Source of the DNA: Rhina ancylostomus
Lineage: Eukaryota
Direction of reading: 5' to 3'
Assembly: GCA_030265395.1 (NCBI GenBank)
Contig: JARFYF010000094.1
Span: forward strand, 29,138,919 to 29,202,918
Length of the DNA stretch: 64,000 nucleotides
In this document: piece after piece, positions 38,151-62,402 of the stretch
Layout of the letters: every line of letters begins with the position of its first letter
Position numbering within the stretch: position 1 is the stretch's first letter
Translations under genes and position numbers: made by a program
Notes under the pieces: model-generated
Told to the model about the DNA's origin: nothing
The model's database searches: none
The model's input: only the letters and a program-made list of their open reading frames with translations

Positions 38151-38917
38151 TCAGATGCTAAGATCAGTGCTGCATTCTCTAAATGCCTTTCTTCTTGGCT
38201 GTGGGGACTGTCTGGAACTTCGGGAAGAGTCATTTTTCTCCATGTTGTGTTCATCTGTGCGCCTGGATCTTTCTTCAGCTTTACTTCTCTTTTCAGGTGA
38301 TCTGTCTCTTTTTGGGTCAAGAGACTTGTGTCTCCTTCTCTCAGGTGACCGCTCCCTCCTTCTCTCAGCTGCATTTTCTTTCTTCCTGTGTGGTGATCTT
38401 TCCCTTGTTCTATCGGATGATTTCTCATTTCTCTTGCTAGGTGACTTTTCTCTTCTCCTATCAGGTAAATCTTCCCATCTCCTTTCTGGTGACCTTTTTC
38501 TCCTGTCAAGTGGTGTTTCCTTATGTCTGCCAAGTGATCTTCCATTCTGTTCCATATTTTGATCTGTCATCTTCGATACATCCCTACCTCTATCAGGAGA
38601 TCTTTGGTGGTATCCATTCTCTGCCTTTCTTTCTTTCCTCTCAAGTGATCTATCCTTCCTCCTTCCAGGTACATTTTCTTTTTTTTTGTAAGTATCATTC
38701 CAGGTCTTATTGTAGTGTTCATTGGTTGGTCTGCTGTGTTCCTTTCTTCCTATTGGCTGTTGTTCATTAACCCTCCTTTCTCTGTGCTGTGATGATTTGT
38801 GAATTTCTGGTGGATAACTGGATTCCAGTAATGGATGAGGTCGTCTTTCTGATAAGTGTTTCACTTCCGGTACATTTTGTGAGCCTGTTGTGGAACTGCC
38901 CCTGTCATTGTTTGGGT
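38151..38917 (-). CDS. MAGI1: MAGI1 terminal coding exon (MAGI1c Arg/Ser/Glu-rich tail; b-isoform frame stops at 38861)
   Basis: Acceptor tttattttattttcAG (38919-38918). The phase-1 join gives VPEY-DPNNDRG...HPLLESSYPPEIHKSS...RSPERRRERSPERRR...ECSTDLSI-TGA (255 aa), matching recalled human MAGI-1c (DPSSDRH...HPSLESSYPPDLHKSS...ECSTDLSI). Confidence 0.95.
38265..38530 (-). repeat. Degenerate 24-nt (8-aa) coding tandem repeat in the MAGI1c tail
   Basis: About 10 units: RRKRSPER / RWEDLPDR / RREKSPSK / RNEKSSDR / TRERSPHR / KKENAAER / RRERSPER / RRHKSLDP / KRDRSPEK. Confidence 0.75.
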
Positions 38918-41929: not shown

Positions 41930-43800
41930 GGCCAAGATCTGCAGCCGATGATCATTTCCCCATTCTTCCCACTGGCCTGCACAGTATATACTTAATTCCA
42001 GCAATTCCCTAATTACGTCAGCACATGTGGAATCTTCAGAGCTGTCAAAATCATCTGCAGCCCATACACCCAAAAGCCCACCCTACTAAGATCCAATAAA
42101 CAACGGACAGCTCATCAAAGGCATTTAGTGCCCACTGGGAGGAGCTGTTTGAGAAACTTTTCAGTCCTTGATGCATGCAATCCACAACACACAATATGGT
42201 TCTGTCTCTAGGCTACTCCAGACTGACCAGAATTTGAGAAGGCCAAATACTAACAGGCAAATATACATGCCTGATGAAGTTCTAAAACGTGGTGGAAAGG
42301 ACCTTCAGGCAAAAATTCACAGTCACCATTTACCTCTGGAAGAGGAGGACAAGCTAGGGAACCTCAGGCACCTGATAATCGTGACCATCTTCAAGAAAAG
42401 AGTCAAATCTGACTGCGATAACTATGCTCTCCAAATCACGGTGAGGATTTCATCCACCTGGAGGTTCGGTGGGCATGACCTTCATCATGTATTGGTACTG
42501 GTTTATTATTGTCACTTGTACCGAGGTACAGTGAAAAGCTTATCTTACAAACCGATTGTACAGGTCAATTCATTACACAGTGCAGTTAAATTGAGCTAGT
42601 ACAGAGTGCATTGATGTAGTACAGGTATGCAGATAGCTGTATCAACCACTATGCCTGCCTTTTTTGGCCTCACAAAAGCCTCTAATTTGTTAACTGAGAG
42701 GAGAATCTTTTTGAGACTTGGCTGCTGTCAGAAATTGGTATCCTTTCTATAACTACTTGCATGCAAATGGTGATTCTAACTAATGGCTCTACCACAGATC
42801 GATTCCCAATGTTGACTGGGTCCAAGCCAGGCTATGTCATGGCTCCACCATTTTTCTCCATCTATTCTTGCCACAATATTCTGCCTCGCTTTGGAATGAA
42901 GTTAAATTACATTAAAAATGTCACTCTATTCTCAGCCACCAAGAAACAGTGAGTACAATGCTTGTGCGTACACATATTCGAAGGCTGATTTCTGAGGTGT
43001 CATCAACTATTTCATTGAATGGTATGTGATAATGGGCCTTAGATTAAACACTTGTGAAATAAAGGTCATCTGCTAACCTGCCCATTGCATAACACCACTC
43101 CCTGACCACATCAAGGAGCGTGAACTACTTTCAGAAGCTGGCGAGCTGCTTGTCAGCAAACGGAGATATTAATGATGAAATTCGCTACCACCTCCAGTGC
43201 CCTAACATAGACTTTGACCATCTGAGGAAAAGAGTGTTTGCAGAACAAGACTGAAGTCATAGTGCACTGGCAGCACTGATGCCTGCCCTCCTGTGTCCCT
43301 CTGAGACACCACAAAACACTGGAAAAGGACCACCATTTCTGGATCTGCAAATTCTCACGTCTCCTGGCAGAATAAATGAACCAATGTTAATATCCTTTCC
43401 CAGGCCAATACTCAGCATTATGCTCATTTGCCTCTATTGGGGAGGCCATTTGGTTCCATGTCCAATGGCAGACTCCTGAATCAGGCACTCTATTCCAAGA
43501 GGTTACAAGAACAAAGTAAATCATTAAGGATGTCCTCATCAATATGTAGGAATTCATAGCCTTTGACCCCTCAAAATGGAGAAAGAGCAAGCAAGGATTG
43601 TATTGAGGTCCTTCTTCACTGGGAACATAACAAGACCTAGCAAACAGGGTGGAAGAAGCAGGTTGCTTCCCATACTGCCCATCTATGCACTATGGCAAGC
43701 ACCTCTTGTCCCAGCTGTGGCAGAATCTGGGGATTCCACATCAGCCTCATAACCCGTAAAATTGGAGTGGAAGCAAGGTGGATCAAGGTGAAGAGGAAGA
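41930..43800 (+). mobile_element. Decayed RTE-clade LINE in the last MAGI1 intron
   Basis: Frameshifted RTE RT motifs: MPDEVLKRGG...LRHLIIVTIFKKRVKSDCDNY and MQMVILTNGSTTDRFPMLTGSKPGYVMAPPFFSI. Confidence 0.85.
42489..42627 (-). mobile_element. Rex1/Babar-type 3' terminus nested in the RTE
   Basis: ggtttattattgtcacttgtaccgaggtacagtgaaaagcttatcttac matches 22787-22828 joined to 28054-28125. Confidence 0.75.
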
Positions 43801-47250: not shown

Positions 47251-47583
47251 TCTCATGGTTGCCAACACATGGATATAGTTCTGCTTCTTATTTCCCTCCA
47301 CTAGGAGCAGGCAGAAAGATGTTGCTTACATTCAGGCTTTCACTATAGAGATCCATACATTTTTGTAGATCTGCAGTAGTTTTTTTTTGTTGATGGCATA
47401 GGAAAGCTTTTAACTAACTGAATGTTGCAAGAGAGACAGAATGAGAGAGAGAAAAACAAGAGGGAGGGAGAGAGGGGGAGAGGGNNNNNNNNNNNNNNNN
47501 NNNNNNNNNNNNNNNNNNNNNNNNNNNNNNNNNNNNNNNNNNNNNNNNNNNNNNNNNNNNNNNNNNNNNNNNNNNNNNNNNNN

Positions 47584-47700
47584 NCTCCCACATTCCAAAG
47601 ACGTACAGGGCGGTTAATATGGGTTTAAAATGGGCAGTGTGGACTCGTTGGGCTGGAATGGCCTGTTACCACACTGTAAGTAAAAAAAAATTTAAAAAAG
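47584..47700 (+). mobile_element. V-SINE 3' half (after a gap)
   Basis: Contains ctcccacattccaaagacgt...ttgggctggaatggcctgttacc and an A tail. Confidence 0.7.
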
Positions 47701-49359: not shown

Positions 49360-49570
49360 CAGCAGCAAAAAACTGCAGATGTTGGAAATCTGAAATTAAA
49401 ACAGTAAATGCTGGAATCACTAAATCAGCCAGGATCTGTGGTGAGAGAATCAGATCTAATGTTTTAGCACCAGGACCTAATGAAATTTCGGACAAAGGGT
49501 CTTTGACCTGAAACATGAACTTTGCTTTTCCTTCCACAGATTATCCCAGAATTTTCTGTTTTTATTTCAA
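49360..49570. mobile_element. Penelope-derived foldback element
   Basis: ctgcagatgttggaaatctgaaattaaaacagtaaatgctgg faces aagggtctttgacctgaaac...ccacagat...agaattttctgtttttatttc as inverted arms. Confidence 0.7.
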
Positions 49571-57388: not shown

Positions 57389-57477
57389 CGTATTTTGATT
57401 AGGGCCCATTAAGTAGAAGCAAGACTCCCCGTGCTTGTCGCTTCTCATGCATGAGGAGAGATTAGGAGGTATCATCG
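57389..57477 (-). CDS. MAGI1: MAGI1b-type 89-nt cassette exon
   Basis: Acceptor ttctgccctcAG (57479-57478). Reads (G)CG ATG ATA...: AMIPPNLSSCMRSDKHGESCFYLMGPNQNT. Donor GTTGGT at 57388-57383. Resembles recalled human MAGI-1b AMIPPNIAACMRNEKLGEACFYLMGHNQT. Confidence 0.9.
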
Positions 57478-58726
57478 CTGAGGGCAGAACGAAGAGCCCA
57501 GCACCCATGAAAGACGAGAAAGAAAAAGAGCAGAAGATAGATTTAGATTCCCTATTAGTAAGCAGCAACAGGATTGATCACTCTGTTGATCATGGAAAGA
57601 TGTTTATTATTGTTCCAGTCAGATTGTCCAGGCAAAAAAACAATTAGACTGCAAAGACAGCAGTGGCAGGACCAAAAGATACAGCAAAATGAGCACCAGA
57701 AATCACTAATGGGAAATTCACTCCATTTTTATCACAATACAATAAGTCAAAATAGTATGTAAACAATGATTCATTGAAATATTTACAAACTCTACATTTA
57801 AATCCATGGAAGTTATGAATTGTATTAAAAGTAATTACAGAACTTGTTACAAAAATATATACCCTTACAGAGAGATCGTTTCAATGGAGATTTTAAAAAA
57901 ATCATAAGTTCAGGAAGTTCAGAATTCTATTTTTGGTAATTATGTATTATTTTAAAATAATATATAATCCCCTTCATTTGGTCTCTAGAGGGATGTTAGT
58001 AGCTGTAGCTGTTCTCATGTTTTTCTGTAAAACTTCACATACCTTTCAAGGAAGCAGCAGATCATTATACAAATCATTAAAGGGGCTTGAAATTATTTAT
58101 TTTGGATAAATCATCTTGTTAAAGAGACACCNNNNNNNNNNNNNNNNNNNNNNNNNNNNNNNNNNNNNNNNNNNNNNNNNNNNNNNNNNNNNNNNNNNNN
58201 NNNNNNNNNNNNNNNNNNNNNNNNNNNNNNNCCTTCTCATAGAAAAGGCCTGGAGTATGAGTACTGCTGATGTGTACTTTTGCAAATTTTCCACACGTAA
58301 CTGGAATTGCTCTGTGCTGTCAGTTAATAGCTAAATGTTCACAACTAAAAGGATATAAAATGCAGTGTTTTAAAATGCTTTAAATAAACATGATAATTTA
58401 AATTAATAAATATTAGAACACTTCTATTCAAGATTTGGCCACAGGGTGTAAACTTAATGGCAGTTTCATTCCTGTTTAACTATGACAAGAAGCTTTATAA
58501 TTGTATGCTCAGTAGGCATTTGAACTGCAGAGAATTTAATACAGTTAAAATACTATTGCAAAATATGCTGTCCTGACTAATTGCTTGTATACTCCAGCCC
58601 ATTCCAAATCAAAATGGTGAATACACAAAATTAGTACCAGCTGTTTAGAACCAAAATCTGTACATTTTTGAAAGAAGAAAAAATTCCTAGATTTTAACTG
58701 AAAAGAGAGAAGGAAAAAAAAATCAC

Positions 58727-58906
<180 letters not shown>

Positions 58907-62036: not shown

Positions 62037-62402
<366 letters not shown>

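What the first reader, a model, noticed from the sequence alone, without database searches (positions are those of the whole stretch)
38861..38917. Dual-coding start of the MAGI1 last exon appears conserved in both reading frames
Seen: skipping the 89-nt cassette gives DPNNDRGSSTTGSQNVPEV... (c tail). Including it shifts the frame, so the same 57 nt read TQTMTGAVPQQAHKMYRK-TGA. Known (recalled): human MAGI-1b ends TPAATATAPPPVHKVFRK* from the equivalent bases. Inference: an 18-aa alternative frame with the same length and HKxxRK* end has persisted since the shark/bony-fish split. The stop lies in the last exon, so it should escape NMD.
Basis: partly seen in the sequence, partly recalled or inferred. 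Interest (0 to 1): 0.7.

Follow-up and report, generated by a model that had tools for sequence, protein, structure and literature searches.

The report
MAGI1's ancient two-frame last exon
In this ray's MAGI1 scaffold gene the first 57 bases of the last exon are read in one frame when a small upstream exon is skipped and would be read in another when it is kept, likely giving a long or a short protein tail; the arrangement is shared with mammals and with the sister gene MAGI2 and is already described in print.

Summary
Real, and already known. The window holds the 3' end of MAGI1 of a ray. Skipping the 89-nt cassette gives the long c tail; including it gives a 48-aa b tail whose last 18 residues come from 38917-38864. 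The skip junction stands in 4 of 4 contig sets laid; the b junction was not seen in RNA here. Annotated b tails from rays to placentals keep length and RK-stop (102 of 104 spliced records end RK). Variation is highest at b-frame wobble sites, and a c-only null fails at dS>=1. The stop position alone is weak evidence. The MAGI2-like paralogue has the same 89-nt cassette and 18-codon b frame. Reviews describe MAGI1a/b/c; a 2026 preprint lists MAGI1 as preserved across jawed vertebrates and MAGI1 and MAGI2 as selected in both frames. Possible small additions: cassette homologues at two further paralogous loci, and synonymous constraint in the cassette. The scan had no MAGI note, only like arrangements in other genes.

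The parts
62046..62189 (-). MAGI1 exon encoding the first half of the last PDZ domain (PDZ5)
   Evidence: ORF; boundaries; paralogue hits
58768..58906 (-). exon encoding the second half of PDZ5; phase-1 donor after 58768 shared by b and c forms
   Evidence: Pfam PDZ; junction
58727..58767 (-). read-through of the donor: a-type tail (13 aa) and stop
   Evidence: same tail in annotated record P0164
57586..58726 (-). likely 3' UTR of the a form, ending near AATAAA at 57608
   Evidence: contigs of X3 and X5 run across the donor and end at 57586/57590 (X3 flagged probably DNA); hexamer
57389..57477 (-). 89-nt frameshifting cassette exon (junction Ala + 29 aa of the b tail)
   Evidence: annotated b proteins; homologue in MAGI2-like locus 57/89 nt identical
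38861..38917 (-). dual-coded start of last exon: b frame 18 aa + TGA; c frame offset by two bases
38151..38860 (-). remainder of the c-frame coding region (basic, Arg/Ser-Pro rich); 3' UTR in the b form
   Evidence: 73 of 254 residues K or R, one bipartite NLS-like stretch at residues 140-157; no Pfam family

Best explanation
This is the MAGI1 a/b/c tail switch: skipping the 89-nt cassette joins PDZ5 to the long basic c tail, while including it would shift the last exon into a second frame that stops after 18 codons, likely swapping the NLS-bearing tail for a short conserved peptide in a tissue-regulated way, with both frames probably under selection. Shown here: splice sites, frames, the skip junction in relatives' contigs, conservation of annotated b tails, the same architecture in the MAGI2-like paralogue. 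Inferred: inclusion in this ray; escape from junction-dependent NMD (stop in the last exon); brain/heart bias (from mammals); origin before the MAGI1/MAGI2 duplication. What the b peptide binds is not known; most likely it acts as a short disordered tail with a basic RK end, besides removing the c tail.
For: Frames and sites. Skip junction 58768>38917 in 4 of 4 contig sets, 3 coded organisms, 3 studies. Records picked on the cassette only (120 listed of 189): 104 splice to the last exon; 94 have 18 aa ending RK, 7 have 19, 1 has 22 (all RK), 1 has 18 ending QK, 1 deviates; 15 read through the cassette donor, 1 other (records, not species). Variable positions of 19 across 16 pairs: 12 at b-wobble (c first), 8 at c-wobble (b second), 3 at the remaining position: the order expected if b is coding, reversed from c-only coding. 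c-only null: P<=0.04 at dS 1 for all 6 pairs simulated, <=0.011 at dS 2. b-only null also fails for 4 of 6 at dS 1 (P<=0.021). The fourfold CpG-bearing c codon that supplies the b Arg is kept in 32 of 33 distinct tails. MAGI2-like locus: 89-nt cassette, 18-aa frame, RK-TAA; three teleost MAGI2-type records agree. Literature.
Against: At dS 0.5 the c-only null is not rejected for 3 of 6 pairs (P 0.05-0.19), and I had no measured ray-tetrapod dS. b-only null not rejected at dS 1 for 2 of 6. RNA-level constraint near a splice site could add to the signal; between MAGI1 and MAGI2 the cassette shows no codon-position bias (11/9/10 differences) and 6 of 6 fourfold sites identical against 10 of 31 in PDZ5 exons. 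One rodent record (P0459) loses the RK end. Positions 2-11 of the b peptide drift.
Confidence: 0.88

Rival explanations
1. The cassette is a regulated truncation switch: what matters is removing the c tail; the b residues are kept mainly because the bases carry splicing signals.
For: Synonymous constraint in the cassette between paralogues: 6 of 6 fourfold sites identical vs 10 of 31 (one-sided Fisher about 0.003, hand calculation, small n, post hoc). TGCATG at cassette position 27 in both paralogues (RBFOX label recalled). b tail has low pLDDT and no packing on PDZ5 in the model.
Against: Variation in the overlap peaks at b-wobble positions; in-frame codon insertions are tolerated while the RK end stays (8 records); preprint reports dN/dS below 1 in both frames. 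Both roles can coexist.
Confidence: 0.25
2. The b frame and its stop are a by-product of selection on the c-frame PEV-type motif.
For: c peptide alone yields the stop at codon 19 with probability 0.17-1.0; c frame is conserved in and after the overlap (9-13 of 18, then 16-21 of 26).
Against: The c motif itself varies (P/S, V/M, V/I) by first-position changes that are silent in b; MAGI2 shares only 5 of 18 c residues but 9 of 19 b codons incl. stop; the cassette is conserved as coding in all groups.
Confidence: 0.07
3. In this ray the cassette is a silent relic and only a and c forms are made.
For: No b joint listed in 4 contig sets.
Against: Splice sites and frame intact; predicted b tail is identical to annotated ray records P0128/P0136; tissues of the runs unknown; tables were cut and human-like contigs are filtered; in X5 the last-exon contig breaks at the acceptor, a weak hint of a second upstream partner.
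Confidence: 0.05

Closest known systems
Mouse/human MAGI-1a, -1b, -1c (Dobrosotskaya 1997 and Laura 2002, not read; as described in reviews PMC8428372 and PMC8231924, passages seen)
   Same: Three C termini after PDZ5 made by splicing with frameshift; review lengths 1139/1171/1374 with a 251-aa c tail imply tails of 16 and 48 aa (my arithmetic); b is 48 aa here too; c tail basic with NLS-like stretches.
   Different: a tail 13 aa and c tail 255 aa here; only one bipartite-like NLS matched my simple pattern; tissue pattern untested in rays.
MAGI1 dual-coding region DCR 1450 (Goubert et al. 2026, PMC13160074; passages and supplementary rows seen)
   Same: Same two junctions into the last exon in mouse; Q96QZ7-5 in the alternative frame, flagged no_NMD; frame-by-tissue effect, best contrast frontal cortex vs testis.
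   Different: Human and mouse only; no MAGI2 row in its supplements.
Tress et al. 2026, bioRxiv 10.64898/2026.05.28.727796 (abstract, passages, sections 16, 21, 25 seen; supplements closed)
   Same: MAGI1 region preserved across all jawed vertebrates; MAGI1 and MAGI2 with dN/dS below 1 in both frames.
   Different: Main text does not show the MAGI alignment, does not name MAGI among the families that gained the region before duplication (only some of 13 are named), and says nothing of MAGI3 or a fourth paralogue; supplements may.
MAGI2-like paralogue in the same genome (G000:C51)
   Same: 89-nt cassette, phase-1 entry, 18-codon b frame, RK-stop, long c frame in the same register.
   Different: Tandem AG acceptor adds one residue; no HK; stop TAA; c frame only 5 of 18 identical.

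Membership tests
MAGI1 orthologue | best matches are MAGI1 proteins; PDZ0-GK-WW-WW-PDZ1-5 layout | tested here: met
   top hits cartilaginous-fish MAGI1, 77-89%; domain set on P0128, whose tail equals the window's b tail; only PDZ5 exons lie in the window; no tree or synteny test
MAGI-1b isoform | 48-aa tail after PDZ5 from a frameshifting cassette plus last exon | tested here: met
   (at genome and annotation level)
MAGI-1b isoform | cassette-to-last-exon junction present in RNA | tested here: inconclusive
   not listed in 4 contig sets of unknown tissue
MAGI-1b isoform | brain/heart-biased expression | not testable with these tools
   run tissues not given; mammalian data
MAGI-1c isoform | skip junction and long basic tail | tested here: met
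Dual-coding exon under selection in both frames | both frames preserved across distant species | tested here: met
   teleosts
Dual-coding exon under selection in both frames | substitution pattern shows constraint in each frame | tested here: met
   indirect (bases inferred from protein pairs, assumed dS); published dN/dS
Dual-coding exon under selection in both frames | both proteins detected | not testable with these tools
   needs proteomics; PMC2174332 (abstract and methods seen) reports a MAGI-1c-type protein in Torpedo electric organ, nothing seen on b

The most novel reading that the evidence does not exclude
The cassette exon after PDZ5 is older than both vertebrate genome duplications and survives at four paralogous loci with different fates: two-frame switch in MAGI1 and MAGI2, self-terminating exon in the MAGI3-like locus, and a longer exon with another exit phase in a fourth (MAGIX-like, label recalled) locus; its synonymous sites are frozen between MAGI1 and MAGI2, pointing to a shared, over 450-million-year-old splicing code laid over the peptide.
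Probability: 0.55. Interest if true: 0.35.

Novelty: already known. Interest (0 to 1): 0.22.

Why it matters
It confirms in a cartilaginous fish that the MAGI-1b tail, usually treated as a mere splice variant, is a deeply conserved peptide sharing bases with the c tail, and ties it to the same switch in MAGI2. Practical point: variants in these 57 bases must be read in both frames, and an RK-ending tail kept so long invites a search for its partner. The core claim is already in 2026 preprints, so the gain is corroboration plus small evolutionary detail.

Tried and rejected
The look-up of sequencing runs listed no holder on record as RNA; four guessed-RNA contig sets were laid: cassette bin without cover in all four, which shows nothing about absence. 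A second look at the cassette region in RNA was not obtained, so the b junction stays open. Fold-back of the b tail on PDZ5: AlphaFold model of a teleost MAGI2-type b protein (P0308, 31 rows) has PDZ5 at pLDDT 80-90 but the tail at 42-45: no support; best PDB matches end at PDZ5. No Pfam family for cassette or c tail. Intron flanks of the cassette do not align between MAGI1 and MAGI2 beyond 16-17 nt. First PDZ5 control was out of frame and was redone. Stop position as proof of selection: rejected as weak. No jawless-fish or invertebrate record was recognised among 51 hits (most unnamed, 5 look like chance). Paper searches: (MAGIX, MAGI2, MAGI1, ohnolog, lamprey; 4 of 5 terms) found none. No last-exon homologue with an 18-codon frame was found in 40 kb at the MAGI3-like locus; the fourth locus lies on a 2568-base contig.

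Full report
Observation. On the minus strand the window carries two PDZ5 exons (62189-62046 and 58906-58768), an 89-nt exon (57477-57389) and a last exon starting at 38917, all with GT/AG ends. Joining them in a script gives three tails after PDZ5: 13 aa by reading through the donor, 48 aa with the cassette (the last 18 from 38917-38864, TGA 38863-38861), and 255 aa without it. The c tail finds MAGI1 of rays at 88-89%, sharks 79%, chimaera 52%, tetrapods about 42% (120 listed of 764), so this is a batoid MAGI1. Genus names used below are completed from truncated labels; two (Mobula, Chiloscyllium) are recalled from accession blocks.

RNA. No run was on record as RNA. In four guessed-RNA contig sets from three coded organisms the skip joint 58768>38917 is present in 4 of 4. 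Contigs of X3 and X5 also run across the donor to 57586/57590, near AATAAA at 57608, as an a-form 3' UTR would (X3 is flagged probably DNA). No cassette joint was listed and the cassette bin had no cover; tables were cut and conserved contigs can be filtered, so this is not absence. The b junction remains unobserved here.

Conservation. Cluster members and searches returned annotated b proteins from rays, skates, sharks, chimaera, caecilians, squamates, birds, monotremes, marsupials and placentals. The search scored the cassette only, so tail length is not preselected: of 120 records listed (of 189), 104 splice to the last exon; 94 have 18 aa ending RK, 8 have in-frame insertions and still end RK, one ends QK and one deviates; 15 read through the cassette donor and one has another end. 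These are records, several per species, mostly gene models. Teleost MAGI1 records P0311, P0350 and P0328 also have 18 aa ending RK (found with a profile that included the tail).

Two-frame test. For 16 same-species b/c pairs (paired by assembly size, accession block or name) and one mixed placental pair, both peptides fit one DNA sequence, 17 of 17. Variable positions were 12 of 19 at b third/c first positions, 8 at b second/c third and 3 at b first/c second: c-only coding would put the maximum at c third positions. Redrawing synonymous c codons reproduces the observed b identity with open frame and stop with P 0.0003-0.039 at dS 1 (6 pairs simulated of 17), but only 0.009-0.19 at dS 0.5; dS was assumed, codon use uniform, and the pairs are not independent. 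The converse b-only null gives P 0.007-0.15 at dS 1. The stop alone is weak: 0.17-1.0 under the c-only null, because Met followed by Lys forces it.

Paralogues. The PDZ5 exon has two further matches in the genome. The MAGI2-like locus has an 89-nt cassette, 57 of 89 bases identical, and a last exon 8.4 kb on whose b frame is 18 aa ending RK-TAA and whose c frame runs 265 codons. Three teleost MAGI2-type records agree. The switch is therefore older than the MAGI1/MAGI2 duplication (inference). The MAGI3-like locus has a cassette homologue with its own stop, and a fourth homologue sits on a short contig. MAGI2/MAGI3 labels rest on similarity to named records and recall, not on a tree. Between MAGI1 and MAGI2 the cassette has 6 of 6 fourfold sites identical against 10 of 31 in the two PDZ5 exons, suggesting constraint on the RNA as well; numbers are small.

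Mechanism. Most likely regulated cassette splicing chooses between a long basic tail (73 of 254 K/R, one bipartite NLS-like stretch) and a short tail with a fixed RK end; the b stop lies in the last exon, so junction-dependent NMD should not apply (inferred; human isoforms are flagged no_NMD). A structure model gave no sign that the b tail folds on PDZ5, so a disordered motif is the better guess; its partner is unknown.

Literature. PMC8428372 (passages, figure legend) says MAGI1A, B and C arise by splicing after PDZ5 with frameshifts. PMC8231924 (passages) gives lengths and reports b mainly in brain and heart, c in epithelia. [quoted passage not shown] PMC2174332 (first quarter) reports MAGI-1c in Torpedo. 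I found no paper on the four-locus cassette history in searches, but closed supplements and subscription papers were not seen. Earlier scan notes hold nothing on MAGI, only like arrangements in CDC14, REEP1 and NELL (unchecked).

Verdict. Observation confirmed, interpretation supported, already known; interest 0.22. The most novel reading left is the pre-duplication origin at four loci with an RNA-level code in the cassette (probability 0.55, interest 0.35).

Noticed in passing
G000:C51:20245425-20245337 and 20236899/20236896 onward (L002, L004), minus: MAGI2-like paralogue with homologous 89-nt cassette and dual-frame last exon; tandem CAGCAG acceptor adds one residue in either frame; trout record P0305 has the extra residue.
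   Followed up: yes
G000:C53:13988052 onward (L003, L014), plus: MAGI3-like paralogue: cassette homologue ends in its own stop after 16 codons; a 257-codon ORF from 13989807 ends in a PGPWK motif also seen in the MAGI2 c tail.
   Followed up: partly
G000:C5218:28-121 (L020, L023), plus: Fourth cassette homologue, 46% identical in protein, 94 nt or 91 from the second AG, so a different exit phase; resembles unnamed records P0351-P0355, one of which (P0353) has a PDZ domain before it and a long tail after. Candidate fourth MAGI paralogue; short GC-rich contig; its PDZ exons were not found.
   Followed up: partly
window 57388-57250, minus: Bases after the cassette donor resemble those read through in skate, frog and mammal gene models (15 of 120 records read through). 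Mammal and frog models end in a CaaX-like Cys-Ala-Val-Ala; birds, turtles and this ray stop after three residues, so it is more likely a conserved intronic element than coding.
   Followed up: partly
window 58767-57586, minus: a-type read-through tail and likely 3' UTR; contigs end about 100 bases before the cassette, so polyadenylation at 57608 and cassette splicing would compete.
   Followed up: partly
protein P0313 (chimpanzee MAGI2 isoform 9): Cassette plus a further short exon returns to the c frame, consistent with the phases found here.
   Followed up: no
window 42490-42630, 47500-47690, 49360-49570: High-copy repeats transcribed or present at high depth in relatives; 17 N gaps in the window.
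   Followed up: no
window 38186-38151, minus: The last 12 residues of the c tail are conserved (8-10 of 12) and end in a hydrophobic residue, possibly a PDZ-binding end that the b form lacks (inference).
   Followed up: no
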